In this document: positions 16,801 to 44,985 of the stretch, in pieces
How the letters are laid out: every line of letters starts with the position of its first letter
Numbering within the stretch: position 1 is the first letter of the stretch
DNA from: an uncultured Gammaproteobacteria bacterium
GTDB lineage: Bacteria; Pseudomonadota; Gammaproteobacteria; DRLM01
Direction of reading: 5' to 3'
Length of the DNA stretch: 64,000 nucleotides
Assembly (NCBI GenBank): GCA_947259075.1
Contig: CAMYKQ010000057.1
Location: 135,246-199,245, forward strand
Position numbers and translations under genes: made by a program
The notes under the pieces: generated by a model
The model's input: only the letters and a program-made list of their open reading frames with translations
The model's database searches: none
Told to the model about the DNA's origin: nothing

Positions 16801-17252
16801 GAACCCACGCCGTCTTTCTTCGGCCGCGCCAAGTCCAGCGCCACGATGGTGACTTGGCTATTGCGTATCACCACGCCGTCCGCCGCACCAAACCAATCGG
16901 CGGTTTCCAAGGCCGCGCACACACCATTGGCGAAGATGCCCATGGCTACCCGGCGGTTTTCCCCTATGGGAATATTCGGGACCACGGTCTCAATCACCTG
17001 TGTGCCCGCGGGATAGGTTCTTTGCGACGCGATTGTGGCGAAATCATTAGCACTGATTTCTATACGCACACAGAAGGGCGCTTGAAATTCTTCGGGGGCC
17101 TTGAGTGCCAGCGAAACACCGGTGGTATTCGGCGCGGCCTGTCCCGCCAGCGGGTCATCCGCGGCGCCACCGCCACATCCACTCAGGGTTATTACTAGAG
17201 AAAACAGCAGAAATACGGTATAGCGATGCACTACAGCGGCGAGCACGTTCAT
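13848..17252 (-). CDS. peptidase C25 (gingipain-like cysteine peptidase) family lipoprotein, 1134 aa, with N-terminal Ig-like and C-terminal CARDB-like regions
   Basis: Lipobox LSGC. C25-like core: FIIITPPDF...WVLLMGDSEFIP...GLGRFPVDT...HRDHGWW (His)...YSVNCASGIF (Cys). Confidence 0.7.
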   Translation of the reverse strand: MNVLAAVVHRYTVFLLFSLVITLSGCGGGAADDPLAGQAAPNTTGVSLALKAPEEFQAPFCVRIEISANDFATIASQRTYPAGTQVIETVVPNIPIGENRRVAMGIFANGVCAALETADWFGAADGVVIRNSQVTIVALDLARPKKDGVGSVVIRGDQARETIRLHGEVVTVDSTPIPGASCAIQEEGTPIGTVVSGAATDDLGVLDTDVEVKSTTLQLMLVCSRPGFSNTTKLAERVPDTGVTTFVATVIMTRGVSISVVSVSNEGAEFVASVPTPELTTVDTPSGVFSRFQNPGGGMQMRSGGVDDASQAEVPMLSVQLALPLGFDLETSEGLQVSVEPEGDAVAMEARLFPVQPPVRDARGPDGEPFAKDDESFKFDRARYERAATDIKQVSVLPLSGPGDDFNVVQISLPLVNYDPGAQSLLSWPALRIRVSHPAAECFSRVRVAENLEMDAVDASIETEMLALSLTNVSPLNVELVKKAVCPEIVTPVFFGARFIIITPPDFLAAANTLRAHKIARGISTVVANTATIGSTKAQIKAYLENAYNNWFIRPKWVLLMGDSEFIPTHYDLKNSWDNAKNAGDMWYAQPTLSGLFKFLEPVTNPRFGLGRFPVDTLIQAQQMVSNVIAFENNPPPGALFGSSYYSRMTFAAQFQDNNLDGKAERAFAQTSEFIRDRLIPKNFSIQRIYSTAAGSSPTLYVDNVPVPLALRKPVFPWTGNTTDIINATNTGTSILYHRDHGWWSGWGTPSFSSGNLASISVSNNRFPVVYSVNCASGIFDNETVDLPANTEPGGYGPGVGSVYWGETFVRKSDGAIAVIGDSRSSGTWFNNDLAKGLFDATWPDVVAYGGATSIRKVGDILNHAKLYLRSERLGSDFTQTRQHMLIYSVMGDPTVEVKSKPPLSIVIGSLVFEAAVVKVPVIPEPPCLTCPPFGLEPVFVVAQNLDGEMIARGVVQDGVAELDLSGFDGEEFMLTVSGADVDPVSERIIRPGEGAPDLVVTNFAQAGDAVVTRDGIQVPVRMTLRNQGSSDAAIFKSSTQYTTADGSTFVAAFTVPGEADIFYPWTDDLLGAGREASFSGVVTFLASLRGQTVSLTGLADSCSGDEFVPEFCRVEESDEDNNLSAAVEITLPP

Positions 17253-26451: not shown

Positions 26452-29277
26452 TCACATCACGATCAACTCCGGCTCACCGCAATCGCGCAGAATCGCCGCG
26501 CGCGCCTGCTCGCGCAACTCGACTGCCGCGCGCCAATCGGTCCCGTCCGCGCGCAGCGGCGCGGCAATGCTCACCGTCACCGCCCCGCGCCGCGGGCGCC
26601 ACGAACCGGACGGCAGCACGGCGCGCGTGCCGCGCAAGGCTACCGGCATCACCTCGACGCCGGCGCGCGCCGCCGCGACGAAGGCGCCCATGCGAAACGG
26701 CCGCAGCCCCGGCGCGACGCCGAAGGTGCCTTCGGGGAAAAACAGCAGGCTGTGACCCGCACGCACTTTTTCCTCCAAACGATTGGCGGCGGCGGCGCTT
26801 TGCTGGGTATCGAAACGCTCGACGAATTCACAACCGATACGGCGCAGACACCAGCCCAGCAGCGGCCGCGCCGCCAACTCTTGTTTGGTGACGTAGTGCA
26901 AACCCAGCGGCAGGGCCGCCACCAAAATCAGCGCGTCGATATAACTGGCGTGATTGGCCACCACGATGCGCGTCGCCTCCGCGGCGAAATGCGCCTCGCC
27001 GCTCACGCTGAGACGGATGCCCGCGCAACGCGCGGCGATGCGCGCCGCCTGTTTGCAGCTATTCTGCCGCGCCCGCAGCGTGGGCAATACGGCCACGCCC
27101 GTTATCGCGATCAGCGCCCCGATTAAAAACACCAGCCACACATAGGCCGCGTACACAGCGCTCAGGGTTTGCGCGGCGCCCCGCCGCAGCGCGACACCAG
27201 CAGCGGCGGCGGCCAAAGTCAAACGTGGGCGCCACGGCGCCGCGGCGGCGTCTTCATCGCCGCGTTCGTAACGTTGGCGCGTCGCGTCGCGGCGCACCTT
27301 GCCGCTGGAGGTTTTCAGCACCGTGCGCGGCGGCGCCAGCACCACTTCGTCGGGCGGATTGCCGATGACGGCGATCACCGCCTCGTTGATGGCGGCGCGC
27401 AATTGCGCGCGCTGATCGCCGCGGGTCTCGCGGGTCTCGGCGAGAACGACTAAACGCTCGGTGCCCAAACTCGCGTCGCGGCTGGCGAAGGCCGCCACGC
27501 CGCCTTCGCGCACGCCGGGGAGGGCGCCCACCGCCGCCTCTAATTCGTAGGGATAAATATTGTGGCCGCCGCGGATGATGATGTCTTTGACTCGCCCGGT
27601 GATGAACAACTCGCCGCCGCTCATGTAGCCGCGGTCGCCCGAATCCAGCCACTCGCCGTGTATTAAGCGCGCGGTGGCCTTGGGATTGCGGAAGTAACCC
27701 TGACACGACGACGGTCCGCGAAATTGCACCCGCCCTTCGCGGCGCTCTTCGCAAAGCCGGTCGCGCTCATCGGCGATGCGCAGCGCGTGGCCGGGCAACG
27801 CGCGGCCGCAGGCGACGAAGCAGGCCGTGTCGGCGGCGGGCGTGGTGGTTTGCGCCCGCGGCGCGGCGAGGCCGCGGCCGGTCAAGGCCGCGCGGTCGAC
27901 GCAATCGATGAGCGGCTCGCGGCCTAAGGGGGGGAAAGCCAAACCTACCGAGGATTCCGCCAAACCATAAACCGGCGCCATGGTGTTCGAGCGGAAACCG
28001 TAGGGCGCGAAACGTTCGCTGAAACGGCGCAGCGTGTCCGGGCTCACCTGTTCCGCGCCATTGAAGGCCACTCGCCACGAACTCAAATCCAGCCCGGCCA
28101 GTTCCTCATCGGTGATTTTGCTCGCGCACAATTCATAGGCGAAATTGGGCCCCGCCGACAGCGTGCCGCGGTGACGCTGGATGGCCCGCAACCAGCGCGC
28201 CGGCCGCGCCAAAAAGCTCAGCGGCGGCATCAGCACCAAGGGCAGACCGTGATAGAGGCTGCCGAGCCAGGCGCCGATCAAACCCATATCGTGATAAAGC
28301 GGCAGCCAGCTGACGAAGACGTCGTCGCCCGTCACCTCCACCGCCTGGCCCATGGCGCGCACATTGGCCAGCAGATTGGCGTGGGTGAGCATCACCCCTT
28401 TCGGGTCGCCGGTGCTGCCCGAGGTGTATTGCAGCAGCGCCAAATCCGCGCCCGTAAGCCGCGGCCGTTCGCCGCCGCCCGCCACGGACAGCTCGTCCAC
28501 CGTCAGCACCCCGCGCAAGGTCGGGGCCAAAGCCTGCAGCGCCGCCGACAGCGCGCTGATCTCCGGCAAAGTGATCAGCAAGGGTGCCTGGCAATTATTG
28601 AGAATCACCGCTTGGCGCCGCAGATGGGCCTCCGCGGCGGCGCGCCGCACCGGCGGGTAAAGCGGCGCGGGCACGGCCCCCGCCAGCAGGATGCCGAGAA
28701 AGGCCACGAGAAATTCCCGGCTGGTGGGCAGCATCAGCGCCACCGCCTGTCCCGGCGCCACGCCCCGGGCGCGCAGACCCGCCGCCAGCCGCTGCGCCTC
28801 GCCGTACAGGTCTTGATAGCTCAGGGGAAGCGGCGGCTCATCGCCGGAGTAAAGGTAAACATGCACCCGCTCGGGCTCGGCGGCCACATGCCATTCCAGG
28901 GCCTCAACCAGGGTCGCGGCTTGTTCGGGAGCACCCCGGCCCGGTCCGGTAGCGGGGGTGATAATCGCCTCCTCGTCCCCCCTTTCTTCACTGCGTACGG
29001 CAACCGCGATGGCGGAAAGTAAGGCCCGCGCGGTCTCCGCCTCACCTAAAACCGGCTCCGGCAAGCGCACGCCGAAGGCCCGTTCGACCCGCAGCACCAG
29101 CTCGACGCGCGCCAAGCTATCCAAACCCAAATCCCGGTCAAAAACGCTGTTTAACTGCACGGGATGGCTCGTCTGACTGTGTATCTCTCTGACTAAGTTT
29201 TCAATGATTCCAAGAATACGCGCCTCATTGCGCTTCTCCCCCGCCCCATTTAACCCCGCCTCGCTCATGCGCTCCAT
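26452..29277 (-). CDS. tri-domain ACP - fatty acyl-AMP ligase (FAAL) - lysophospholipid acyltransferase (PlsC-like) fusion protein
   Basis: N-terminal PP-binding motif LGLDSLARVEL. AMP-binding core LQYTSGSTGDPKGVMLTHANL with FAAL-like features. TM helices. C-terminal HX4D acyltransferase motif VANHASYID and EGTF/PEGT motif. Confidence 0.8.
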   Translation of the reverse strand: MERMSEAGLNGAGEKRNEARILGIIENLVREIHSQTSHPVQLNSVFDRDLGLDSLARVELVLRVERAFGVRLPEPVLGEAETARALLSAIAVAVRSEERGDEEAIITPATGPGRGAPEQAATLVEALEWHVAAEPERVHVYLYSGDEPPLPLSYQDLYGEAQRLAAGLRARGVAPGQAVALMLPTSREFLVAFLGILLAGAVPAPLYPPVRRAAAEAHLRRQAVILNNCQAPLLITLPEISALSAALQALAPTLRGVLTVDELSVAGGGERPRLTGADLALLQYTSGSTGDPKGVMLTHANLLANVRAMGQAVEVTGDDVFVSWLPLYHDMGLIGAWLGSLYHGLPLVLMPPLSFLARPARWLRAIQRHRGTLSAGPNFAYELCASKITDEELAGLDLSSWRVAFNGAEQVSPDTLRRFSERFAPYGFRSNTMAPVYGLAESSVGLAFPPLGREPLIDCVDRAALTGRGLAAPRAQTTTPAADTACFVACGRALPGHALRIADERDRLCEERREGRVQFRGPSSCQGYFRNPKATARLIHGEWLDSGDRGYMSGGELFITGRVKDIIIRGGHNIYPYELEAAVGALPGVREGGVAAFASRDASLGTERLVVLAETRETRGDQRAQLRAAINEAVIAVIGNPPDEVVLAPPRTVLKTSSGKVRRDATRQRYERGDEDAAAAPWRPRLTLAAAAAGVALRRGAAQTLSAVYAAYVWLVFLIGALIAITGVAVLPTLRARQNSCKQAARIAARCAGIRLSVSGEAHFAAEATRIVVANHASYIDALILVAALPLGLHYVTKQELAARPLLGWCLRRIGCEFVERFDTQQSAAAANRLEEKVRAGHSLLFFPEGTFGVAPGLRPFRMGAFVAAARAGVEVMPVALRGTRAVLPSGSWRPRRGAVTVSIAAPLRADGTDWRAAVELREQARAAILRDCGEPELIVM

Positions 29278-29543: not shown

Positions 29544-31730
29544 ATGATCAAGACCATAATCAACGGCCTACACACTCTTCCCTCTAATACCGTTGGCCAC
29601 TCTTCACGCGCGCTTAAATTGAGCGCCTTACTGCTCGGTTTGCTTGCCGGAACATCAGCTTACGCAGCAACCTATACCGTCAACAACACCAGCGACGGCG
29701 TCGATGCCGCCCCCGGCGACGGCATCTGCGAAACCGCCACCGGTAACAATGTATGTACCTTGCGAGCGGCTATACAGGAATCCAACTCGGGGATCAGCAA
29801 CTCCATCATACTCCCCGCAGGCGAATATCTACTCACCATCGTCGGCAAAGACGAAAACCTATCCGCCACGGGCGATCTGGATATTAAAAAAGATGTCACC
29901 ATCACCGGCGCGGGTCAAACCACCACCATCATCAATGGCAATGGTGGCGTACTAAATGACCGCGTACTTCAGATTTTGGACGGCGCCACGGTGCGTATCT
30001 CCGGCCTCACGATTAAAAACGGTCACATCAGCAGCAGCGTAGGTGGCGGACTAGACAACGCCAATGGCACCACCACCTTGGACAGCGTAACCGTTAGCGA
30101 CAATATAGCGGACAACCCCGGTGAGATCACAGATGCAGGCGCCGGCGGCGGCATTTACAACAGCGGCAAACTCACCTTGACTAGCGTTACCGTGAGGAAT
30201 AACTCTTCTGACACAAATAACATGTCCACAGGCGGCGGCGGCATCTACAACGAAGCCATTCTGGCAATCGAAAACAGCACGATCATGAACAATAGCACCG
30301 TAGGCGCCAGTGCCGGCGGCGGCGGTTTACAAAACACCAACGAGGATCGTGCAGGCCTCAACAACGCCATAGCCACCATCATCAACACCACTTTTTCCGG
30401 TAATAACGCGATCATCGGCGGTGGTATCCGGAATTTATACGGCCAGGTCAATGTGGACCTGAGCGTATTCAATGGCAACCACGCCACCACATCCGGCGGC
30501 GGCATCGACAACTCGGGTGGCGGCATGACCATCAGCCGCAGCACCGTCCGCGATAACACCTCCAGCTTCACCGGCGCTGGCGTATCCAATTTCGCCGCGA
30601 TGAATCTCTCCCACAGCGCGGTTTACGACAACAACGCAAGCCTGCAGGGTGGCGGCATTTACAACACCGGTGATGGCGCTCTGGCCCTGCTCAACACCAC
30701 GGTCACGCGCAACAACGCAACCGAGGGTGGCGGCGTCTACAATCACCGTGAACTGAACGCCACCAATTCCACCCTCTACAACAACACTTCCAGCAAACCC
30801 GGCAGTGAGATCTTCGCCTGCGGCACCAAGGACGAAGACAAAGGATTGACCTGCTCCAATGACAGCAGCAAAGTGAAAAGCAATATCATCAACTCCATCG
30901 TCGGCAATACTACCGGCGCCGCGGCCTGCGGCGGCGATGTCAGCTTGATCATTTCCAAGGGCTACAACATCGACACCGCCAATACCTGCGGCTTCAACCA
31001 AACCAGTGACAGAAGCAACATCACGGGCTCCGCCGTATTCGCTGGCGGTTTCGTCAATAATGGCGGACCCACTTTCACCTATGCCATTCTTAATGGCAGC
31101 CTTGCCCACAACACCGGGGACAACATCAACTGCCCGGTCATCGATCAGCGTTTCAAACTGCGTGACAGCGCCTGCGACATTGGCGCCTACGAAATCAGCA
31201 ACACCGAGGCCACCTTTCAATTAATCGACTTGAATGTCGCGGTCACATCCAATGTCGCCACCTCCGGCGGCAGCCCGCAAGTCACTTTCACCATCACGGT
31301 CATCAACAATGGTCCCAGCCAAGCCACTGGCGTGGTCCTCACCGGTCAACTGCCGCCCTGGGGCAAGATCACCAGCGCCCGGACCAATATCAATGGCAGC
31401 AACTGCACCTCCACCTCGGAAACCGGCTTCCAGTGTACCTTGGGCACCATCAACGCCTACGCCAGCGCCCAAGTCTACATTGTGGTTGCCCCCACCCAAG
31501 CCGGTGAGTTGATACTGGAAGTGGATGCGGTCGCCGATCAAACCGACATCTTCCGTCCCGATAGCGGCAACACCACGTCCGAAACCGTACCCGTAGTCAC
31601 CGGCACCGCCGTCGGCGGCCCCGACGGCGGTAACAATTTCGCCGGTAAGAGCGGCGGCGGCGCAACGGATTGGGCCATCGCCCTATTGCTCTTGGTCCCC
31701 GCGGCGCGGCGCCTTGCGCGGCGATATTAA
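29544..31730 (+). CDS. secreted CSLREA-N-terminal / PMP-repeat (parallel beta-helix) / DUF11 protein with C-terminal TM + Arg-rich sorting-like tail
   Basis: Signal peptide. N-terminal YTVNNTSDGVDAAPGDGICETATGNNVCTLRAAIQESN (CSLREA-type). Many GGGIYN/GGGIDN repeats. DUF11-like C-terminal module. Ends SGGGATDWAIALLLLVPAARRLARRY. Confidence 0.6.
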   Translation: MIKTIINGLHTLPSNTVGHSSRALKLSALLLGLLAGTSAYAATYTVNNTSDGVDAAPGDGICETATGNNVCTLRAAIQESNSGISNSIILPAGEYLLTIVGKDENLSATGDLDIKKDVTITGAGQTTTIINGNGGVLNDRVLQILDGATVRISGLTIKNGHISSSVGGGLDNANGTTTLDSVTVSDNIADNPGEITDAGAGGGIYNSGKLTLTSVTVRNNSSDTNNMSTGGGGIYNEAILAIENSTIMNNSTVGASAGGGGLQNTNEDRAGLNNAIATIINTTFSGNNAIIGGGIRNLYGQVNVDLSVFNGNHATTSGGGIDNSGGGMTISRSTVRDNTSSFTGAGVSNFAAMNLSHSAVYDNNASLQGGGIYNTGDGALALLNTTVTRNNATEGGGVYNHRELNATNSTLYNNTSSKPGSEIFACGTKDEDKGLTCSNDSSKVKSNIINSIVGNTTGAAACGGDVSLIISKGYNIDTANTCGFNQTSDRSNITGSAVFAGGFVNNGGPTFTYAILNGSLAHNTGDNINCPVIDQRFKLRDSACDIGAYEISNTEATFQLIDLNVAVTSNVATSGGSPQVTFTITVINNGPSQATGVVLTGQLPPWGKITSARTNINGSNCTSTSETGFQCTLGTINAYASAQVYIVVAPTQAGELILEVDAVADQTDIFRPDSGNTTSETVPVVTGTAVGGPDGGNNFAGKSGGGATDWAIALLLLVPAARRLARRY

Positions 31731-35558: not shown

Positions 35559-36317
35559 TTAATCAAGCTCGGCGCGCCACGCAAGATCACCGAGCCACGT
35601 GCCGTGATGGATAGACGTGACTGAACCGGCAACGGCAAGGGCGCCGGTGTAGGCGTCCTCCGTTTCCAAATCATGCAAACTCCATTGCGCTTGCATCCCG
35701 CATGCCGCGGCGCGCGCCCGCGCGCCGCTGACATCTACTTCCGTCAACCTCCGCGCCAAACCCATCCCCGTGGCTTTCAGCAAGGCCTCTTTTCTTGTCC
35801 AGTAACGCATCAACGCCCGCAAGCGCAGCGGCGGCGGCAGCGTCCGCCACACCGCGCGTTCACGCGGCGTGCAAATTCGCCGCGCCAGCGTCTCCAAATC
35901 CATCGCATCGTTCAACTGTTCGATGTCGGCACCGATATCACCAACCCGCGTCACCGCCAGCAGCATCCGCTCGCCACTGTGCGCCAGATTGAAATATAAG
36001 GGCGAGTCATCCGCGTCCATCGCTAAGGCGGGTTTGCCCCTGGGACCGTAAATGAAACGCAAACTCCCGCCGTGCCGCCCTAAATAACGGCCTAAGATCT
36101 CACGCACGATGCCACGGCCCGCCACGAAGTCCGCGGATTGCTGCGGATGATTGAAGCGCGCGGCACGCAAACGCTCATCCTCGCTGAGCAAGGCGTCAAA
36201 ATAGGCGCCGCGCACCGCCGCGCGGCGCAAATTACTAAACCAGACATGCACCTCACCCTCGGAACAGTGCAAATTCATCCCGGGAAATAAGGCGGCGCCG
36301 CGCGCGTGCTCAAGCAT
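35559..36317 (-). CDS. 4'-phosphopantetheinyl transferase (Sfp/EntD type)
   Basis: FNLAHSG motif and W/KEAxxK motif (WTRKEALLKATG). Start codon uncertain (36317 or 36278). Confidence 0.8.
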   Translation of the reverse strand: MLEHARGAALFPGMNLHCSEGEVHVWFSNLRRAAVRGAYFDALLSEDERLRAARFNHPQQSADFVAGRGIVREILGRYLGRHGGSLRFIYGPRGKPALAMDADDSPLYFNLAHSGERMLLAVTRVGDIGADIEQLNDAMDLETLARRICTPRERAVWRTLPPPLRLRALMRYWTRKEALLKATGMGLARRLTEVDVSGARARAAACGMQAQWSLHDLETEDAYTGALAVAGSVTSIHHGTWLGDLAWRAELD

Positions 36318-36812: not shown

Positions 36813-39800
36813 TTAACAAGCCATTGCCTGACGCGATGTCATATGCGGGCGCACGCCGTTGAGATAACGTGCCGAGATTTGTATATGCGGTTCGTACATC
36901 ATTGAGTTGTGATCTCCCGGCACTTCGACGACAGAGAAGGGCCGCGACACCACCTTGTCCCAGCCGAGCATCGGGCCGTAATCCACCGGCTCATCCTCGG
37001 CGCGCAGCAAGGTCATGGCGCCGTGATAATCACCCGATTCATAGGTCTGCAGGGCAATGCCATTCGCTAGATAGACTTCGAAATAACGGTACAAGCGCGC
37101 GGTATCGGCATCGTGCGGCAAGACTTCGATCTCGCGGGCGCGTTGCAACACGTACTCGAACATGCCTTCGCCCGCCACCGCGCGTAATTCTTCCGGCGCG
37201 ATGTTGAGTGTCTTACCATAAGGCACGGCAAGATCGCGGGCGAACCAGGACAATAAGGTGGCGTCGTCGCCATCGGAGGGGGCGTTCTCGGGAATGGGCG
37301 CGCGGGTATCGAACATCACCAGCTCCGCCACCTCTTCACCCGCCGCCTCCAATTGCCGCGCCGCCTCGAAGGCGATCAAACCACCGAAGCACCAGCCGCC
37401 CAAGTGATACGGCCCTTGCGGTTGCTGCGCGCGGATGATTTCCAAATAACACCGCGCCAGATCGGGCACGCTTACTTCCGCGAGACTCGCATCTTCGAGA
37501 CCGGGCGATTGCAGCGCGAACACCGGGCGCTGCTGATCAAGATGCCGCGTCAGCGCCAGATAGCAAAACACTGTACCGCCGATGGGATGCATTAAATACA
37601 GCGGCGGCACGGCGCCCGTGCCGCGTAATGGCACCAGCGCCGACGCGGCCTCCGCCGCGCCATTGTGTTCGCGCAGCAAGCGCGCCAAGGCCTCCACCGT
37701 ATTGTGCTGGAACAAGGTGGACACCGGCAATTCCACGCCGAAACGCTCACGGATACCCGCGACCAATTGCACCGCCAGCAAGGAATGGCCGCCCAAATCA
37801 AAAAAGTTTTGCGTGACGCCTACCGGGTGCACGCCCAAGAGTTGCTCCCACAGGGATGCGAGCTGAATTTCACCGCGGTCGCGCGGCGCGACGAAACCGG
37901 CCAATGCCGCATGCGCGCCCTCCGCCGGCGCCGGCAGCGCGCGCCGGTCGATCTTGCCATTGGGCGTGAGGGGAAACGCCGCCAAGGGCACGATGAGGCT
38001 GGGTAACATGTAAGCGGGCAAATGGCCGGCAAGGTGCGCCTTCAATGCGGCGGCGGACACCTCACCATCGACAGCCGTCACATACGCGACCAAGCGTTGA
38101 TCGCCGGGACGGTCTTCACGCACCATCACCACCGCTTGGTGCACGGTCGGGTGACGGCACAACTGCGTTTCGATCTCGCCCAACTCGATACGGAAACCCC
38201 GCAGCTTCACTTGATGATCCAAACGGCCCAGGCATTCCAGCGTGCCGTCGCGCCGCCAGCGCGCGAGATCGCCGGTTTTGTACATGCGCGCCTCGCCCGC
38301 GGCGAAGGGATCGCGGACGAATTTCTCCGCCGTCAATTCCGGGCGGTGTAAATAACCGCGGGCGACGCCGGCGCCGGCGATGCACAACTCCCCCGGCACG
38401 CCGGGCGGCACGGGTTGCAGGGCCTCATCGACGATATAGATTTGGGTATTGGCGATGGGACGGCCGATGGCGATGGCGCCCGCGCCGGACTCGACGCGCA
38501 TCACGCTCGACCATACCGTGGTCTCGGTGGGCCCGTACATATTCCACAGCGCCGCGACGCGCGGCAACAAGGCCTCCGCCACTTGGCGCGGCAGGGCTTC
38601 ACCGCCGCACAAGGCGGTGAGCCGGCTGCATCCATTCCAGCCATCGGACAGCAGCATGCGCCAAGTCGCGGGCGTGGCCTGCATCAGCGTCGCGCCGCTG
38701 CTTTCCAGCAAGGCTTGCAGGCGTTGCGCATCGCTGCTGTCTTCGCGGCTGACGATCAGCGTCATCGCCCCCACGGTGAGCGGCAATAGTAACTCCAGCA
38801 CCGCGATATCAAACGACAGCGTGGTCACCGCCAGCATCACATCGTCGCCGCGCATGCCCGGCTCACGCGCCATGCTCGCGAGAAAATTCACCACCGCGCC
38901 GTGGGGCACGGCGACGCCTTTGGGTTTACCGGTGGAACCCGAGGTGTAAATGACGTAAGCGGATGAGGTGGAACTGACGACGCGATGCGGGTTATGCCCG
39001 GGAAAAGTGGCGATCTCGGGCCAATCGTGATCGAGACTCAGCGCGCGCGCTACCGGCAAGTCCAGCTCGGCCCACACGGCTTCGTGGGTGAGCACCAGAT
39101 CGATCCCGGCGTCCTCCATCATCATGCGCAAACGGTCGCGGGGAAAGGCCGGATCCAAAGGCACATAGGCCGCGCCGGTCTTGAGCACCGCCAGCATCGC
39201 CACCAGCATATCGCCGTTGCGTGCGCTGCATATGCCGATGTGCTGGCCCGCGGCCGCGCCGCTCTCGATGAGATAATGCGCCAGCTGATTGGCGCGCTGA
39301 TTCAACACGCGGTAACTGAATACTTGCTCGCCGCCCATCACGGCGGTCTTGTCCGGTGTCGCCGCCGCCTGGGCCTCCACCAGTTGATGCACGCCGTTCA
39401 CGGCAGGCAAAGGCTGTTCCGTGCGATTCCATTGCAGCAACACCTGCTCGCGCTCCGCCGCCGTCAGCAAGGGTAAACGCGCGATACGCAGCCCCGGATT
39501 CGCCACGATACCTTTCAATAATTCCACGAACTGCCCGGCGAGCGCGCTTATCGTCTCCGGCGCGAACAGCGCCGTGTCGTATTTCCACACGCCAAAGAGT
39601 TCGCCCTCGGCCTCGCCACCCATCTCCAGCGCCACATCCACTTGCCCTTCCTGTTGCGGCAAGGGAAAAGGCGATAAGGTCATGGCACCGAAGGCCACGG
39701 CCTCCGCCGCTTTATCCGACAGGGAAAAGAAGGAGGCCAATTCTTTGAACTGCGGCAGCCGCTCCCAGGAAAATCCGGCTTGAAATAAGGGCGGACGGCT

Positions 39801-40895
39801 GAGGTCGCGCTCCGTTACCAGCTTCTCCACCAAGGAGGCGAAGGGATATTCTTGGTGACGCAGGTCTTCACCGGTGTGGTCGCGTGTCTGCAACAGCAGC
39901 TCGCGAAACGTCATCTCGCCGCTGACCGCGCCGCGCAAAACCACGGTGTTAACAAAATGGCCGACCGTGCGGCGAAAGGCCTTATCGAAGCGGCCCGCGA
40001 CCGGCGCGCCGACTAAAATGTCTTCCTGGCCGGTATAACGATGCAGCAAGACGTAATAGGCCGTAAGCATCAAGGTGAACAAAGTCACGCCTTCCGCACG
40101 CGCCAAGCTATGCAGCGCGGCGGTCAAATCCGTGTCGAAATGGAACCCAAGCGAGGCGCCGCGATAACTCTGCAGCGGCGGGCGCGGATAATCGCTGGCA
40201 AGATTCAGCACGGGCAACTCGCCAGTTAAACGCTCGCGCCAATACGCCGCCATGCGCGCGCGCGCCGCACTCGCCAGCTTCTCCTGCTGATGATGTACGA
40301 AAGCGGGGTAATCGCTGCCCAGCGGCGGCAGATTCACTGCCTTAGCCGCGGTCAAATCCTGGTAGACCTGACGAAATTCATCGAGCAACACCGCCAGCGA
40401 CCAAAAATCCACGGCGATATGATGCGCGCTCCACACCATCAAGGCGTCACCCTTGCCACGGCGGTAGAGACGCACGCGCAGCAAGGGTGCGCGGGCGAGA
40501 TCAAACGGCTTTTGCGCATCGGCGCTGGCACGTTCCCGCAGCTGCGTATCATTCCATCCAGCCGCCACGATGCTCGCGCTGTCGACCTCAACGTGCGGCA
40601 ACACCTCTTGGCGCGGCACGCCGGCGGCATCAACAAGGAAACGCGTGCGCAAAGCGGCATGCCGGTCCAGTAAATAACTCAAGGCCGCATCGAAGGCCGC
40701 CGCATCGATAGCCGAGATCACTCGCGCGGCGAACACCAGATTGTAGGCGCCATTATCCGGCGCCATTTGCTGCACGAACCACAGCCCGCGCTGTACATCC
40801 GCCAACGGAAATGTCTCCGTCGTGGCCCGTGTGTTATCACCCACCACCGGCCGGGCTGCGGTGCTATGTTTATACTGTACAACGTTGCTAGCCAT
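36813..40895 (-). CDS. single-module non-ribosomal peptide synthetase: starter C - A - T(PCP) - TE, with Cys in the TE nucleophile position
   Basis: C domain HHIAVDFWS. A domain YTSGSTGKPKGV...NMYGPTETT...GELCIAGAGVARGY...PNGKIDRRAL. PCP FFDLGGHSLLAV. TE GGWCFGG...MFDTRAP...GDHNSMM. Confidence 0.9.
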   Translation of the reverse strand: MASNVVQYKHSTAARPVVGDNTRATTETFPLADVQRGLWFVQQMAPDNGAYNLVFAARVISAIDAAAFDAALSYLLDRHAALRTRFLVDAAGVPRQEVLPHVEVDSASIVAAGWNDTQLRERASADAQKPFDLARAPLLRVRLYRRGKGDALMVWSAHHIAVDFWSLAVLLDEFRQVYQDLTAAKAVNLPPLGSDYPAFVHHQQEKLASAARARMAAYWRERLTGELPVLNLASDYPRPPLQSYRGASLGFHFDTDLTAALHSLARAEGVTLFTLMLTAYYVLLHRYTGQEDILVGAPVAGRFDKAFRRTVGHFVNTVVLRGAVSGEMTFRELLLQTRDHTGEDLRHQEYPFASLVEKLVTERDLSRPPLFQAGFSWERLPQFKELASFFSLSDKAAEAVAFGAMTLSPFPLPQQEGQVDVALEMGGEAEGELFGVWKYDTALFAPETISALAGQFVELLKGIVANPGLRIARLPLLTAAEREQVLLQWNRTEQPLPAVNGVHQLVEAQAAATPDKTAVMGGEQVFSYRVLNQRANQLAHYLIESGAAAGQHIGICSARNGDMLVAMLAVLKTGAAYVPLDPAFPRDRLRMMMEDAGIDLVLTHEAVWAELDLPVARALSLDHDWPEIATFPGHNPHRVVSSTSSAYVIYTSGSTGKPKGVAVPHGAVVNFLASMAREPGMRGDDVMLAVTTLSFDIAVLELLLPLTVGAMTLIVSREDSSDAQRLQALLESSGATLMQATPATWRMLLSDGWNGCSRLTALCGGEALPRQVAEALLPRVAALWNMYGPTETTVWSSVMRVESGAGAIAIGRPIANTQIYIVDEALQPVPPGVPGELCIAGAGVARGYLHRPELTAEKFVRDPFAAGEARMYKTGDLARWRRDGTLECLGRLDHQVKLRGFRIELGEIETQLCRHPTVHQAVVMVREDRPGDQRLVAYVTAVDGEVSAAALKAHLAGHLPAYMLPSLIVPLAAFPLTPNGKIDRRALPAPAEGAHAALAGFVAPRDRGEIQLASLWEQLLGVHPVGVTQNFFDLGGHSLLAVQLVAGIRERFGVELPVSTLFQHNTVEALARLLREHNGAAEAASALVPLRGTGAVPPLYLMHPIGGTVFCYLALTRHLDQQRPVFALQSPGLEDASLAEVSVPDLARCYLEIIRAQQPQGPYHLGGWCFGGLIAFEAARQLEAAGEEVAELVMFDTRAPIPENAPSDGDDATLLSWFARDLAVPYGKTLNIAPEELRAVAGEGMFEYVLQRAREIEVLPHDADTARLYRYFEVYLANGIALQTYESGDYHGAMTLLRAEDEPVDYGPMLGWDKVVSRPFSVVEVPGDHNSMMYEPHIQISARYLNGVRPHMTSRQAMAC

Positions 40896-40904
40896 GACAT
40901 CCCC

Positions 40905-41333
40905 CTATGGAATCAAATTGCTCAAGAGCTCGTCCATCTGTTGCGGATCGAGTCTGTCCAGATCATCGAGATCGTCCTTATCGATGACACCCTGCTTTTT
41001 GCTCTCCGTCACACGGCCCTCCAGCTTGGCCTTCACCTCGGGCATGGCATCCAACTGCTCTTCGAGAAATCCAGCGATAGCGGCCACCGTGGGGTAATCC
41101 CACAATAGAGTGGAAGGCAGGTCGACATTCAGCCAATCTTCCAAATCACCCGCGAGCGTTACCGCATCAATGGAATCCAAACCATAATGCGGCAAGGGAC
41201 GGGTCACATCTATCTCGGCGGCATCGATTCGCAAGGTCTTCGACAACATTTCCGTAAGCGTGGACTCAAGCTGTTTAGCGAGCGTCTCATTGACTTTAAT
41301 ATCCTGTATCTTTCTAACTGCATTAGCACTCAT
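40905..41333 (-). CDS. stand-alone acyl carrier protein with acidic C-terminal extension
   Basis: PP-binding motif HYGLDSIDAVTLAGDLE. Start either MSANA (41333) or MPKRR (41354). Overlaps the end of the upstream dehydrogenase gene. Confidence 0.8.
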   Translation of the reverse strand: MSANAVRKIQDIKVNETLAKQLESTLTEMLSKTLRIDAAEIDVTRPLPHYGLDSIDAVTLAGDLEDWLNVDLPSTLLWDYPTVAAIAGFLEEQLDAMPEVKAKLEGRVTESKKQGVIDKDDLDDLDRLDPQQMDELLSNLIP

Positions 41334-43233
41334 GGCGATCCTCCTTTTTGGCATTCATGGCCATACTTTCAGTCTTGGCCAAGGCGAGTGGAACAATGGA
41401 AAACAAACGGTATTCATCGAACAAATAAAACAACTGCTGCGCGACGCGCTGGTGATAGGCATCGGGCAAGTCCGGTTTTTGCGTTTGCGGCTGGGCCAGC
41501 AGACGGTCGAGCGCGAGCACCAGCCATTCCCCTCCCGCGAAGAAGGCGTCAAGCGCGTCGCGATTGTGCAACCACATCTGCAAGCAGGCGGACGCGGCAT
41601 GCAGCTGGGCATAACGCGAGGCCAAGCCAAACATCAGCGCTGATTGCGGATGCTGCCCCGCTTCCGCCGCCGCCTCTAAAGCGGAGTCGAAATCACGCAA
41701 GGCCTGCTCCAGCACACCCGCCATCTGTTTCAGGTGACTTAATACCGTCACGCCTAAAGCCTCATCGCCTTGCAATGCACGGAGGGCGTTTATAGCCGCG
41801 ACCAGGCCTTGCATCACGTCGTCGTGCCCCCGGCTAAATAAATCCAGCTTGGTGCCATCGAAGACCGGCAGGGTTTCATCGAGAGAAAACACCGTGGTCA
41901 AGCGGGTACGGCGCGCGCCGTCATCGGTGAGCTGTTCCCGGCGGCGGGTCTTCAGCAAATGCCGCAACTGCAAGCCGAGGGCATGTAGACAGACTTGCGT
42001 GCTGCCGTCGAAGAGGCTGACCACCCCGCCATCGCGCAGCATTTTCTGAAATATGCCTGACATATGACGCTCGCGGATAAAGTGACGCGCGCCCAAGACC
42101 ACCGAAAGTTGCTGAGTAGTACGCTCCAAGGTCACCGGCACGAAATATTTCACCACCACCGACCACACGCTGAATTGTTCGGTGCTGACATGCAGCCCGC
42201 GCGCGGCGGCGGTGGCCATGCAATCGCAAATCAAGATGTCGAGAAAGGCGTCGCTCAATATCCGCCGCGCATTGGGGATGTCGAACACCGTGCCGTTGTA
42301 CAAGCGGCGGTTTACCGCAAATTGCATGGTTGAACGCAGCGCGGTGTCCACCGCCGCTAGCGACAGACCGGCGCACAGGGTGCGCGTCACTTGAAAGGCG
42401 CGCAGTGCCAGCTCCAAACCCTCGCCCACTTCGCCGACGCGGCTGCTCTCCGGCACCAGACAATCATTGAAACGAATACCGCTGATATCGCAGCCGCGCA
42501 GACCGAGGGTCTTCACCCGGGGCAGATTCGAATATTGCGCGGGATCGAGGTCACGCTTCTCCAGCATGAACAGTGACAGGCTGCGGCTGTCGCGGGCATC
42601 ACTGGTCTTGGCCAGCACCGCCACGAGGCCGGAACGGGTGGCGCGGTTGATCGGCCATTTCTCCCCGCTAAGGCGGTAACCGCCCTCGGTCTTCACTGCC
42701 TTCGTATGATTAGCAACGAGGTCGGCGCCGTGCTGCTCTTCCGAATAGGCGAGGGTCGGCGCGTCCTTGGTCCAACGCAGCACTTTCGCGAGATGGCGTT
42801 TTTGCTGTTCATTACCTCCCACCCAAATCAGCGTCGACCAAATCAGCGTGCTATAGGTGATGGCGGTGGTGAGATCGCGCCGCGCCGCCACCCGCGCCAT
42901 GGATTGAAACTCTTCATATGAAGTAAAGCGCCCGCCGTAGGCCGCGGGCACGTAATAATGATTCATGCCGAAACGGTACAATTCGTCCACCGCCGCTTGC
43001 GGAAAGGCCTCCTGCTCATCCCACTGCATCACGTTGTGGAATGAGATGACGTTCGCCGGATTATTGGGGTCACCGAGAAAGCGCTCCAATTCCTCGCTGG
43101 CGCGGTATTGCAGCGGAAGCTCCCAGCTCCGCTCCTGCGCGTCCTGCGCGTCCTGCGCGTCCTGCGCGTCCTGCGCGTCCTGCGCGTCCTGCGCGTCCTG
43201 CGCGACTGTATGTTCAATGCGTGCCGTTTGCAT
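41323..43233 (-). CDS. acyl-CoA/acyl-ACP dehydrogenase family protein (636 aa) with N-terminal (DAQ)7 repeat
   Basis: ACAD fold features (YGGRFTSYEE, LAYSEEQHGADL...EKWPINRAT). N-terminal VAQDAQDAQDAQDAQDAQDAQDAQE. Confidence 0.8.
   Translation of the reverse strand: MQTARIEHTVAQDAQDAQDAQDAQDAQDAQDAQERSWELPLQYRASEELERFLGDPNNPANVISFHNVMQWDEQEAFPQAAVDELYRFGMNHYYVPAAYGGRFTSYEEFQSMARVAARRDLTTAITYSTLIWSTLIWVGGNEQQKRHLAKVLRWTKDAPTLAYSEEQHGADLVANHTKAVKTEGGYRLSGEKWPINRATRSGLVAVLAKTSDARDSRSLSLFMLEKRDLDPAQYSNLPRVKTLGLRGCDISGIRFNDCLVPESSRVGEVGEGLELALRAFQVTRTLCAGLSLAAVDTALRSTMQFAVNRRLYNGTVFDIPNARRILSDAFLDILICDCMATAAARGLHVSTEQFSVWSVVVKYFVPVTLERTTQQLSVVLGARHFIRERHMSGIFQKMLRDGGVVSLFDGSTQVCLHALGLQLRHLLKTRRREQLTDDGARRTRLTTVFSLDETLPVFDGTKLDLFSRGHDDVMQGLVAAINALRALQGDEALGVTVLSHLKQMAGVLEQALRDFDSALEAAAEAGQHPQSALMFGLASRYAQLHAASACLQMWLHNRDALDAFFAGGEWLVLALDRLLAQPQTQKPDLPDAYHQRVAQQLFYLFDEYRLFSIVPLALAKTESMAMNAKKEDRHEC
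43132..43203. repeat. 9-bp perfect tandem repeat (GTCCTGCGC x7 plus one degenerate copy) inside the dehydrogenase coding sequence
   Basis: Seen directly at 43141-43203, with CTCCTGCGC at 43132-43140. Encodes the in-frame (DAQ)n. Confidence 0.95.
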
Positions 43234-43236
43234 GAC

Positions 43237-44985
43237 TCAAGCCTCCATCAACCGCGGCAGAGCGCCGCTTTGCCACATGACCCTGCAGGCATTACGCTGC
43301 ACCTTGCCGCTGGAGGTGATGGGTATCACCCCGGCCTTCACCAGCACGATTTTCCGTAACTGCAATTGATGTTCGGCGGAGATCGCCGCGCGCGCCGCAG
43401 CCGCGGCCGCGGGCAGCTCCGCCTCATCGTGGCGCCGCTCCACTTCGTGGATCAGCACCAACTCTTCATTACCGTCATCGTCAATGGCGAAGGCGGCGCC
43501 GCGTCCCGCGCGCAGCAGCGGATGACTCAGCGCCGCGGTCAGCTCGATGTCTTGCGGATAGTGGTTGTGACCGCGAATGATGATTAACTCTTTAGAGCGG
43601 CCAGTGACGAACAACTCGCCGTCTTTCATGAAACCCAGATCGCCGCTGCGCATGAACGGTCCCGCGCCATTGGCGAGGCGCGCGCCGAAGGTCTCCGCCG
43701 ATTCGGCGGGACGATTCCAATAACCCTGCGCCACACTGGGGCCCGCGATCCACACCTCACCCACCGTGCAATCCCTGGCTTGCAGACGGCTGACGGGGTC
43801 GACGATGACGACTTGCTCGCTGGCGGAGGGCCGGCCCGAACTCACCAAGCGCCGCCCCGTCTCGGCCTGCTGCCCCGGTTGCACCGCATGCACCTCGCCC
43901 CGTTCCAGCGCGAGGCGATCGATGGTGGTCATCACCGGCGCTTGATCGGCCGCGCTGCCAGTGACGAACAAGCTCGCCTCCGCCAAGCCGTAGCAGGGAT
44001 AAAAAGCCTGACGGCGGAAACCGCAAGAAGCGAAGAATTGGGTGAAGCGTTGCAAGGTATCGGCGCGCACCGGCTCGGCGCCGTTGAAGGCCACTTGCCA
44101 CGAACTAAGGTCCAGCGTCTCGCGCTGCGCGGGGGTGATCTTGTTCAAACACAACTCATAGGCGAAGTTCGGCCCGCCGCTGATGGTGGCGCGGTATTTC
44201 GAAATCGCCTGCAACCAGCGTATGGGCCGTTGCAGCGCGGTGACCGGCGACATCAACACCACCGGAAAGCCGCCGAACAGCGGCACCAGCACACCGCCGA
44301 TCAAACCCATATCGTGATACGGTGGCAGCCAGATCACGCCGCGCGATTCGCCGTTGGCGCCGAAGCGGCGGTAGATCAGCGCGAGATTGTGCATGAGATT
44401 ACCGTGAGTCAGCATTACCCCGCGCGGCGCGGCGGTGGAACCGGAGGTGTATTGCAAAAAAGCCAAACTGCCGGACTGACTGCCGGGGTCTTGCCAAGCC
44501 GCGGCGCGCTCCAGCGGGATTTCATCGGTGGCGATCCACGGGGTTTGTTCGCCGCCGGGCAAGCGCCGCATCTCGTCGTCGAGATTAGCGAGCACGGCGC
44601 GGCTGGTGAGCATCACCGCGGCGCGGGCATCCGCGCTGACTTTATGCACGCGCTCCAAGGAGGCGTTGCGGCGCGGCGCGAACACCGGCACCGCGATCAT
44701 GCCCGCGTACAAACAAGCGAAGAAGGCGGCGATGAATTCCATGCCCGGCTGATACAACAGCACCGCGCGTTCGCCGCCGAGATTTAGCGCCTGCAACTCC
44801 GCGGCGATGGCGCGGACCCGTTCATCCAATTCACCGTAGCTGATGTGTAACTCGGCACCATCACCCTCGCGTAAAAAGGTATAGGCGCGCTGCGCGGGCA
44901 TGAGCCGCGCGCGCTCGCGCAACAAGTCCACCAAGGTGGCGGCCTGCGCCGCGGGGTGGCTGATGATGCGATTGAGATTGTCCAT
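43237..44985 (-). CDS. fatty acyl-AMP ligase (FAAL, FadD32/MbtM-like)
   Basis: LQYTSGSTAAPRGVMLTHGNLMHNL. FAAL-type N-terminus. Stop abuts the ACAD start. Confidence 0.85.
   Translation of the reverse strand: MDNLNRIISHPAAQAATLVDLLRERARLMPAQRAYTFLREGDGAELHISYGELDERVRAIAAELQALNLGGERAVLLYQPGMEFIAAFFACLYAGMIAVPVFAPRRNASLERVHKVSADARAAVMLTSRAVLANLDDEMRRLPGGEQTPWIATDEIPLERAAAWQDPGSQSGSLAFLQYTSGSTAAPRGVMLTHGNLMHNLALIYRRFGANGESRGVIWLPPYHDMGLIGGVLVPLFGGFPVVLMSPVTALQRPIRWLQAISKYRATISGGPNFAYELCLNKITPAQRETLDLSSWQVAFNGAEPVRADTLQRFTQFFASCGFRRQAFYPCYGLAEASLFVTGSAADQAPVMTTIDRLALERGEVHAVQPGQQAETGRRLVSSGRPSASEQVVIVDPVSRLQARDCTVGEVWIAGPSVAQGYWNRPAESAETFGARLANGAGPFMRSGDLGFMKDGELFVTGRSKELIIIRGHNHYPQDIELTAALSHPLLRAGRGAAFAIDDDGNEELVLIHEVERRHDEAELPAAAAAARAAISAEHQLQLRKIVLVKAGVIPITSSGKVQRNACRVMWQSGALPRLMEA

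What the first reader, a model, noticed from the sequence alone, without database searches (positions are those of the whole stretch)
43132..43203. Perfect 9-bp tandem repeat (7-8 copies) encoding (Asp-Ala-Gln)n at the N-terminus of the acyl-ACP dehydrogenase
GTCCTGCGC is repeated 7 times head-to-tail with a degenerate eighth copy. It is in-frame (9 bp), so copy-number change would lengthen or shorten a DAQ linker without a frameshift. Such perfect minisatellites inside a biosynthetic enzyme are unusual. They are prone to slipped-strand variation and assembly collapse. It could act as a flexible or docking linker, or be a recent expansion.
Basis: seen in the sequence. Interest (0 to 1): 0.55.

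Follow-up and report, generated by a model that had tools for sequence, protein, structure and literature searches.

The report
Young in-frame 9-bp repeat in enzyme tail
A perfect eight-copy 9-base repeat really sits inside the start of a fatty-acyl dehydrogenase gene. It adds an (Ala-Gln-Asp)n stretch to a non-conserved N-terminal tail, and it looks like an ordinary, recent slippage expansion rather than a new functional element.

Summary
Window 43133-43204 holds 72 bp of perfect period-9 identity (8.0 copies, TRF score 144; the next best in the window is 51).

On the minus strand the array reads (GCGCAGGAC)7 + GCGCAGGAG, which gives (AQD)7-AQE. These are residues 11-34 of a 636-aa acyl-CoA-dehydrogenase-family protein (41323-43233, minus strand). 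The gene lies in an MMPL–FAAL–ACAD–ACP–NRPS(C-A-T-TE)–PPTase operon.

The repeat must be translated:
- The ATG at 43233, its GGAGG ribosome-binding site and the 3-nt gap after the FAAL stop are conserved in three related loci.
- No other in-frame start precedes the family-conserved LPxQYR motif.

The repeat is specific to this lineage:
- The closest relatives (81-82% identical) have a 17-21-aa tail with only a degenerate two-unit proto-repeat (AMEALE), or their own 12-bp duplication.
- Relatives at 73-75% identity, and all inspected cyanobacterial homologs but two, have no tail at all (the two carry unrelated, non-repetitive N-terminal extensions).
- All units are identical at every codon position, so the expansion is young or is continually homogenised.

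AlphaFold2 places the array in a helix (residues 2-35, pLDDT 65-86) outside the ACAD fold. It is an N-terminal tail, not an inter-domain linker.

The best reading is a near-neutral coding VNTR made by replication slippage. Copy-number polymorphism could not be tested because no conspecific sequence exists in the collections. Interest is low.

The parts
43133..43204 (-). Perfect tandem array, 8.0 copies of a 9-bp unit. The minus strand reads (GCGCAGGAC)x7 + GCGCAGGAG and encodes (AQD)7-AQE, residues 11-34 of the ACAD.
   Evidence: TRF; periodicity script; sequence; translation
43111..43233 (-). Coding region of the non-conserved N-terminal tail (residues 1-41: MQTARIEHTV-(AQD)7AQE-RSWELPL). It precedes the family-conserved LPxQYRAxEELExFLGDP helix.
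   Evidence: Homolog N-termini; DNA alignment A2; AF2 helix 2-35, break at 36-40, then conserved helix 41-53
43242..43246 (-). GGAGG Shine-Dalgarno sequence, 8 nt upstream of the ACAD ATG (43233-43231). It lies inside the last codons of the FAAL gene. It is conserved in L001, L002, L007 and L010.
41323..43233 (-). Acyl-CoA-dehydrogenase-family gene (636 aa), a putative acyl-ACP dehydrogenase. The ACAD N/M/C domains span residues ~67-417 and are followed by a ~200-aa helical C-terminal extension.
   Evidence: Pfam; PDB sequence search; AF2 mean pLDDT 86.9; Foldseek TMt ~0.9 to ACAD structures
43237..44985 (-). Fatty acyl-AMP ligase (FAAL, 582 aa). Its TGA stop is 3 nt before the ACAD ATG and in the same frame.
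40905..41333 (-). Stand-alone acyl carrier protein (142 aa from the ATG at 41333). It overlaps the ACAD stop by 11 nt and has an acidic ~45-aa C-terminal tail.
   Evidence: Pfam; sequence and AGGAGG; the exact 142-aa product is in the public collection
36813..40895 (-). Single-module NRPS (C-A-T-TE, 1360 aa), immediately downstream.
45019..47343 (-). MMPL/RND-type transporter (774 aa), the first gene of the apparent operon.
35559..36317 (-). 4'-phosphopantetheinyl transferase (252 aa).

Best explanation
The array is a genuine, translated, evolutionarily young coding VNTR.

A short, poorly constrained N-terminal tail arose in one small clade of uncultured Gammaproteobacteria, in front of the conserved start of a FAAL-associated acyl-ACP dehydrogenase. 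That tail already held a degenerate two-unit motif (Ala-x-Glu, Ala-x-Glu; GCN-NNG-GAN twice). In the window's lineage the motif became a perfect 9-bp direct repeat and was amplified to eight copies by replication slippage (slipped-strand mispairing). GCGC...GCGC mini-hairpins between adjacent units may have helped.

Because the unit is 9 bp, every gain or loss stays in frame. It only lengthens or shortens an acidic, probably helical (AQD)n extension that projects from the N-terminus, outside the ACAD fold. The enzyme core is untouched, so the expansion is tolerated and most likely near-neutral. The copy number is expected to vary between cells and strains.

What is shown: the array exists, it is translated, it is lineage-specific, it is identical at the DNA level, and it lies outside the fold. 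What is inferred: slippage as the mechanism, neutrality, and polymorphism.
For: (1) The array is real and not a chance match: 8.0 copies at 100% identity, score 144 against at most 51 elsewhere in the window, and about 1e-30 by chance.

(2) It is translated:
- The ATG at 43233, the GGAGG 8 nt upstream and the TGA-NNN-ATG junction with the FAAL gene are conserved in L001, L002, L007 and L010.
- Between the array and the nearly invariant Q42/Y43 motif there is no in-frame ATG, GTG or TTG. The family's usual start position is TGG here.

(3) It is lineage-specific:
- The best homologs are 81-82% identical. Their tails are MKTAIIQKDDAMEALET (P0001/L010), MKIAIIQKDDAMEALEA (L001) and MKTARIQKDLAGETFGETLME (L002/L007), with no array.
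- P0002-P0004 (73-75% identical) start directly at MDLPRQYR.
- Of the ~20 cyanobacterial homologs inspected, all but two (P0022 and P0029) start at M-x-L-x-QY. Those two carry unrelated, non-repetitive N-terminal extensions.

(4) A proto-repeat existed. In alignment A2 the first window units align to GCAATGGAA|GCGCTTGAA of L001/L010. The same tail in L002/L007 has an independent 2-copy 12-bp duplication (TRF). So this tail is a recurrent site of small tandem duplications.

(5) It is young. All seven full units are identical at all three codon positions. There are no synonymous differences of the kind expected in an old peptide repeat held by selection. Its codons GCG, CAG and GAC are ordinary for this operon.

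(6) It lies outside the fold. The Pfam ACAD N-domain starts at residue 67 and most PDB matches start at residues ~65-70, the earliest at 43-47. AF2 gives helix 2-35 (pLDDT 65-86), a break at 36-40, then the conserved helix 41-53. The protein keeps every family-invariant residue.

(7) The single strands can form 4-bp GCGC hairpins between neighbouring units. The + strand DNA fold has z = -3.0, with 0 of 200 shuffles as stable.

(8) In-frame repeat-number change in bacterial coding regions by slipped-strand mispairing is documented (PMC3352902; PMC12817950).
Against: - Copy-number polymorphism, the defining behaviour of a VNTR, was not observed. The operon neighbours are singleton clusters from a single 246-kb NCBI contig, and no homolog above 82% identity exists in the genome, metagenome or protein collections searched.
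- Neutrality is inferred only from lack of conservation.
- All tails in the clade are net acidic and rich in Ala and Glu, and the array is predicted helical at moderate confidence. This leaves room for a weak functional role.
- The exact copy number rests on one assembly, without read support.
Confidence: 0.8

Rival explanations
1. Functional, tunable acidic helix. The (AQD)n extension is selected as a docking or regulatory element. It might modulate contact of the ACAD N-terminal domain with its electron acceptor (ETF), with the acidic ACP, or with the FAAL or NRPS. Copy number would then tune the flux or unsaturation of the lipid product.
For: AF2 predicts one continuous helix over residues 2-35 with pLDDT 65-86. 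The tail carries 10 acidic residues and 2 basic residues, while the rest of the protein is balanced at 68 to 66. Tails of the nearest relatives are also acidic and rich in Ala and Glu. From general knowledge, not tested here: in MCAD-ETF complexes the ETF recognition loop binds the ACAD N-terminal domain, and short terminal helices serve as docking elements in NRPS/PKS systems.
Against: The tail is absent in orthologs of 73-75% identity and in all but two of the cyanobacterial homologs inspected, while the FAAL-ACAD-ACP cassette itself is conserved. Tail sequences differ completely between sister lineages. The units are identical at the DNA level, which indicates recent amplification rather than long-term maintenance. 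The alignment has no depth over the array, so the helix confidence is weak evidence. An all-acidic stretch has no obvious affinity for an acidic ACP.
Confidence: 0.12
2. Assembly or consensus artefact. The array is either absent in the organism, or, more plausibly, the organism has the array but the count of eight is wrong or is a consensus over a heterogeneous population.
For: The source is evidently a metagenome-assembled or draft genome, a single 246-kb contig with no conspecific sequence. Arrays longer than the assembler's k-mer form cycles in de Bruijn graphs (general knowledge). The ACAD product is unaccountably missing from the public protein collection although five operon neighbours are present.
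Against: The array is only 72 bp, shorter than ordinary reads, so it can be spanned. The ORF reads straight through into a fully conserved protein. The flanks align cleanly to relatives on both sides, and those relatives have a proto-repeat exactly at this position. A wholly spurious array is therefore very unlikely. Only the count is uncertain.
Confidence: 0.15
3. The array is not translated because the true start codon lies downstream. The repeat would then be an intergenic or leader element, for example a regulator-binding iteron or a structured mRNA leader, between the FAAL and ACAD genes.
For: Most family members start at M-x-L-x-QY with no tail.
Against: In the window the family's usual start position is TGG. 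There is no in-frame ATG, GTG or TTG until Leu49, and starting there would delete the nearly invariant Q42/Y43 helix. The upstream ATG, the ribosome-binding site and the stop-start junction are conserved in four related loci. The mRNA fold is no more stable than shuffled sequence (z = +0.69). Rfam finds nothing.
Confidence: 0.02
4. Phase-variable contingency locus. Slippage in the array switches the ACAD, and hence the lipid product, ON and OFF.
For: A perfect short-unit array lies near the 5' end of an ORF, which is the typical position of contingency repeats.
Against: The unit is 9 bp, so no gain or loss of whole units can shift the frame. An ON/OFF switch by frameshift is impossible.
Confidence: 0.01

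Closest known systems
In-frame coding VNTRs / simple-sequence repeats of bacteria (for example Burkholderia pseudomallei in-frame amino-acid-repeat indels, and Mycobacterium tuberculosis VNTRs in pe/ppe genes)
   Same: A perfect head-to-tail array of a short unit whose length is a multiple of three, inside a CDS. It is expected to change by slipped-strand mispairing without breaking the frame, and the host genome is high in G+C (PMC3352902; PMC12817950).
   Different: The host gene is a cytosolic biosynthetic flavoenzyme, not a surface or secreted protein. Polymorphism is not demonstrated, because only one genome of the species is available.
Acyl-ACP dehydrogenases that work with a FAAL and a stand-alone ACP (for example NocC/NocI of the nocuolin A pathway)
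   Same: An ACAD-fold enzyme encoded next to a FAAL and an ACP. The FAAL-ACAD-ACP trio is conserved from this locus to cyanobacteria (PMC9486936).
   Different: The window protein belongs to a ~600-aa subfamily with a ~200-aa helical C-terminal extension. It alone carries the (AQD)n tail. Its substrate and product are untested.
N-terminal docking / communication helices of NRPS-PKS assembly lines
   Same: A short helix predicted at a protein terminus in an NRPS-associated operon.
   Different: It is not conserved among orthologs, it has low-complexity acidic composition, and no partner element has been identified.
Phase-variable contingency loci (SSR in the 5' part of an ORF)
   Same: The position near the start codon and the perfect repeat purity.
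   Different: A 9-bp unit cannot frameshift, so no ON/OFF switching is possible.

Membership tests
Coding in-frame tandem repeat (VNTR/minisatellite-like) | Three or more head-to-tail copies with high identity, beyond chance | tested here: met
   8.0 copies at 100% identity, TRF score 144. The chance estimate is about 1e-30.
Coding in-frame tandem repeat (VNTR/minisatellite-like) | Lies within a translated ORF, with a unit length that is a multiple of 3 | tested here: met
   The unit is 9 bp. The start codon and ribosome-binding site are conserved in relatives, and no alternative start precedes the conserved motif.
Coding in-frame tandem repeat (VNTR/minisatellite-like) | Copy number varies between strains or cells | not testable with these tools
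   There is no conspecific sequence. The best homolog is 81-82% identical, and the neighbouring genes are singleton clusters. No reads are available.
Acyl-CoA dehydrogenase (ACAD) superfamily | The three Pfam ACAD domains (N, middle, C) above the curated cut-offs | tested here: met
   PF02771 scores 36.2 bits (cut-off 22.9), PF02770 scores 53.1 (33.3) and PF00441 scores 40.6 (22.4).
Acyl-CoA dehydrogenase (ACAD) superfamily | ACAD three-dimensional fold | tested here: met
   The AF2 model has mean pLDDT 86.9. Foldseek against PDB ACADs gives E about 1e-18, target-normalised TM 0.86-0.91 and rmsd ~2.5 A.
Acyl-ACP (rather than acyl-CoA) dehydrogenase | Acts on an acyl chain tethered to a carrier protein | not testable with these tools
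   This is inferred only from the conserved FAAL-ACAD-ACP synteny and from the NocC/NocI precedent. No NCBIfam equivalog reaches its cut-off.
Phase-variable contingency locus | Repeat-unit changes shift the reading frame or the promoter spacing | tested here: not met
   The 9-bp unit lies inside a CDS, so all copy numbers stay in frame.
NRPS/PKS docking domain | A terminal element conserved among orthologous pathway proteins | tested here: not met
   The tail is absent or unrelated in sequence in orthologs.
NRPS/PKS docking domain | A cognate partner element on an interacting protein | not tested
   The ACP has an acidic C-terminal tail, but no complementarity analysis was possible.

The most novel reading that the evidence does not exclude
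The (AQD)n helix could be a slippage-tunable acidic 'ruler' on the ACAD N-terminal domain. It would alter docking with ETF, the ACP or the NRPS. Copy-number heterogeneity in a population would then produce heterogeneity in how much of the exported lipo-amino-acid or lipopeptide is unsaturated. That would be a graded, non-frameshift form of phase variation acting on a biosynthetic enzyme.
Probability: 0.05. Interest if true: 0.5.

Novelty: new member of a known kind. Interest (0 to 1): 0.17.

Why it matters
The practical value is mostly for annotation and typing:
- It flags a place where the assembled copy number should not be trusted without spanning reads.
- It provides a potential high-resolution strain marker for an uncultured groundwater/soil gammaproteobacterial lineage.
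- Together with the independent 12-bp duplication in sister lineages, it shows how a newly acquired, unconstrained N-terminal tail of an enzyme can grow by small tandem duplications.

It does not change the understanding of the FAAL-ACAD-ACP-NRPS pathway unless the tail proves to affect partner docking.

Tried and rejected
- **Conspecific sequences for copy-number variation.**
  - The exact-protein look-ups included alternative starts and (AQD)6 and (AQD)8 variants. None was found.
  - The genome-contig scan gave only relatives of 82% identity or less.
  - A 27-nt flank pattern shared with L001 found nothing in metagenome contigs.
  - The protein-based metagenome scan gave one 82% relative, L007.
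- **Alternative start codon downstream of the array.** Rejected.
- **Structured mRNA leader.** The RNA fold of -37..+144 is no more stable than shuffles (z = +0.69). Rfam at gathering thresholds found nothing in the window.
- **Opposite-strand or other-frame ORFs through the array.** The (SCA)n, (LRV)n and (RRT)n ORFs are mechanical by-products of the repeat. They lie inside a well-supported gene and were not pursued.
- **Frameshift phase variation.** Excluded by the unit length.
- **N-terminal extensions in longer family members.** In most of the longer homologs inspected the extra length is C-terminal; P0022 and P0029 have non-repetitive N-terminal extensions.
- **NCBIfam.** It gave no equivalog-level name for the ACAD.
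Full report
**Observation.** The sequence at 43133-43204 is 72 bp of uninterrupted period-9 identity. TRF reports 8.0 copies, 100% matches and no indels, with score 144. The next-best array in the 64-kb window scores 51. A direct test confirmed that w[i]=w[i+9] holds exactly from 43133 to 43204. GTCCTGCGC occurs 7 times (43141-43203) and nowhere else in the window. The copy at 43132-43140 differs by one base. A rough chance estimate for such a run anywhere in the window is about 1e-30.

**What the array lies in.** On the minus strand it reads (GCGCAGGAC)x7 followed by GCGCAGGAG. It is in frame with a 636-aa ORF at 41323-43233 that begins MQTARIEHTV-(AQD)7-AQE-RSWELPLQYRASEELERFLGDP. The protein has the three Pfam acyl-CoA dehydrogenase domains above their curated cut-offs, from residue 67 onward. 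Most sequence matches to solved ACAD structures begin at residues ~65-70, the earliest at 43-47. An AlphaFold2 model built with 34 homologs has mean pLDDT 86.9. It superposes on PDB ACADs with target-normalised TM ~0.9.

**Operon context.** The gene is the third of an apparent minus-strand operon:

| Gene | Coordinates |
|---|---|
| MMPL/RND transporter | 45019-47343 |
| Fatty acyl-AMP ligase (FAAL) | 43237-44985 |
| ACAD | 41323-43233 |
| Stand-alone ACP | 40905-41333 |
| Single-module NRPS (C-A-T-TE) | 36813-40895 |
| PPTase | 35559-36317 |

The FAAL-ACAD-ACP trio is also found in the closest relative (L010). It recurs in cyanobacteria, where an MBOAT acyltransferase follows instead of an NRPS (L011). 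ACADs encoded beside a FAAL and an ACP have been shown biochemically to desaturate acyl-ACPs (NocC/NocI, PMC9486936).

**Is the array translated?** Yes, on two independent grounds.
- The ATG at 43233, a GGAGG 8 nt upstream (43246-43242) and the junction 'FAAL stop TGA - 3 nt - ATG' are conserved in four related loci, L001, L002, L007 and L010.
- Between the array and the family's nearly invariant Q42/Y43 motif there is no in-frame ATG, GTG or TTG. The position where tail-less homologs have their ATG (M-D-L-P-R-Q-Y) is TGG in the window (W-E-L-P-L-Q-Y). The next possible start is TTG at Leu49, and starting there would delete conserved residues.

**How old and how conserved is it?**
- The best homologs in a 5.8-billion-cluster protein database, in 185,579 species-representative genomes and in the JGI metagenomes are only 81-82% identical. 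They come from uncultured Gammaproteobacteria MAGs from soil and groundwater surveys.
- Their tails are 17-21 residues with no array: MKTAIIQKDDAMEALET (P0001/L010), MKIAIIQKDDAMEALEA (L001) and MKTARIQKDLAGETFGETLME (L002/L007).
- Homologs at 73-75% identity (P0002-P0004) start directly at MDLPRQYR.
- Of the ~20 cyanobacterial homologs inspected (~50% identity), all but two (P0022 and P0029) start at M-x-L-x-QY. Most of the longer ones carry their extra length at the C-terminus, but those two have unrelated, non-repetitive N-terminal extensions.
- In the DNA alignment the first window units align with GCAATGGAA|GCGCTTGAA (A-M-E|A-L-E) of L001/L010. This is a degenerate two-unit proto-repeat of the form GCN-NNG-GAN.
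- The same tail in L002/L007 carries its own two-copy 12-bp duplication (GGGGAAACGTTT; G-E-T-F|G-E-T-L). So this tail has undergone small tandem duplications more than once.
- In the window all seven full units are identical at every codon position. An old peptide repeat held by selection would have accumulated synonymous differences between units. The array is therefore young, or is continually homogenised by slippage.
- Its codons (GCG, CAG, GAC) are ordinary for the operon.

**Structure and physical properties.**
- AF2 predicts a single helix for residues 2-35, with 10-residue block pLDDT values of 75, 86, 73 and 65. A break follows at residues 36-40, and then the conserved helix 41-53.
It is predicted helical rather than disordered.
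- Because only 10 residues precede it, it is a tail and not a linker between domains.
- The helix call is weak evidence. The alignment has no depth over the array, and a stretch with 8 acidic and no basic residues may be only transiently helical.
- The tail has 10 acidic and 2 basic residues, whereas the rest of the protein is balanced at 68 to 66.

**DNA and RNA level.**
- As single-stranded DNA the units can pair GCGC with GCGC of the neighbouring unit, forming 4-bp stems with 5-nt loops. The + strand has z = -3.0, with 0 of 200 shuffles as stable. The minus strand has z = -1.4. This is the kind of structure that could stabilise slipped intermediates.
- The mRNA around the start is no more structured than shuffled controls (z = +0.69).
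- Rfam finds nothing in the window.

**Most likely mechanism.** The array arose by replication slippage (slipped-strand mispairing) that amplified a pre-existing two-unit motif in an unconstrained tail. The 9-bp unit keeps every length variant in frame, and the catalytic core retains all family-invariant residues. The expansion is therefore tolerated and probably near-neutral. In-frame repeat-number changes in bacterial coding regions, attributed to slipped-strand mispairing, are well documented. Examples are B. pseudomallei (PMC3352902) and in-frame VNTR variation in M. tuberculosis pe/ppe genes (PMC12817950). The mechanism and the neutrality are inferences. The existence, translation, lineage specificity and DNA-level purity of the array are shown.

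**Rivals.**
- A selected, tunable acidic helix, for docking with ETF, the ACP or the NRPS, cannot be excluded. It is disfavoured by the complete lack of conservation of the tail (confidence ~0.12).
- A wholly artefactual array is very unlikely, given the clean flanks and the proto-repeat in relatives. The exact count of eight, however, rests on one assembly and may be wrong or heterogeneous (~0.15).
- A downstream start that would leave the array untranslated is rejected (~0.02).
- Frameshift phase variation is impossible with a 9-bp unit.

**What could not be done.** Copy-number polymorphism could not be tested.
- The FAAL, ACP, NRPS, MMPL and PPTase products are present in the public collection only as singleton clusters from one 246,371-bp NCBI contig.
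- The ACAD product itself is absent in every form tried: the full-length protein, three alternative starts, and (AQD)6 and (AQD)8 variants. This absence is unexplained.
- No reads are available.

**Verdict.** 'Linker' is wrong in anatomy, and 'docking' is unsupported. This is a new instance of a well-known kind of feature, a coding in-frame VNTR, in a somewhat unusual host: a cytosolic biosynthetic flavoenzyme. Its value is practical, as a caution about assembly and as a strain marker, and it is a small illustration of how enzyme tails grow. Interest is low (0.17).

Noticed in passing
L002:5973-5996 and L007:~474-497: Sister-lineage orthologs carry an independent two-copy 12-bp tandem duplication (GGGGAAACGTTT, encoding GETF|GETL) in the same N-terminal tail of the ACAD. 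This tail appears to be a recurrent site of small tandem duplications.
   Followed up: partly
window 41323-43233 (-): The ACAD product is absent from the 15-billion-protein collection in every form tried: the full-length protein, three alternative starts, and versions with one repeat unit more or fewer. It was also not returned by the homology search. Yet the five operon neighbours from the same 246,371-bp NCBI contig are all present as exact singleton clusters. The reason is unknown.
   Followed up: partly
window 40905-41333 (-): The stand-alone ACP most likely starts at the ATG at 41333 (MSANAV..., with AGGAGG 6 nt upstream), 11 nt inside the ACAD's 3' end. It does not start at the first ORF ATG (41354). 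It ends in a ~45-residue acidic tail (...DKDDLDDLDRLDPQQMDELLSNLIP), which could be a docking element for the downstream NRPS C domain.
   Followed up: partly
window 43231-43239 (-): The FAAL and ACAD genes are in the same reading frame, separated only by TGA plus one codon (TGA-GTC-ATG). This TGA-NNN-ATG junction is conserved in L001, L002, L007 and L010, which suggests tight translational coupling. Stop-codon readthrough would give a FAAL-ACAD fusion.
   Followed up: no
L011:6152-11815 (Anabaena azotica CP178454.1): In cyanobacteria the homologous FAAL-ACAD-ACP cassette is followed by an MBOAT-family acyltransferase instead of an NRPS. The cassette may be a portable supply module for unsaturated acyl-ACP that feeds different acyl acceptors.
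   Followed up: no
window 26452-29277 (-): A second fatty-acid-activating gene lies about 7.5 kb from the operon. It encodes a 941-aa fusion of a PP-binding (ACP) domain, a FAAL-type adenylation domain and a PlsC-type acyltransferase domain.
   Followed up: no
window 13848-17252 (-) and 29544-31730 (+): Two large proteins that look secreted or surface-associated: a 1134-aa protein with a peptidase C25 (gingipain-like) domain and a 728-aa DUF11-repeat protein. They sit among housekeeping genes (aconitase, ClpB, ProRS, NadC).
   Followed up: no
window ~47600-52400: This stretch has lower G+C (0.53-0.55, against ~0.60 elsewhere) and only short ORFs (under 200 aa). They include a cupin and a HEAT-repeat protein, and several have no Pfam match.
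   Followed up: partly
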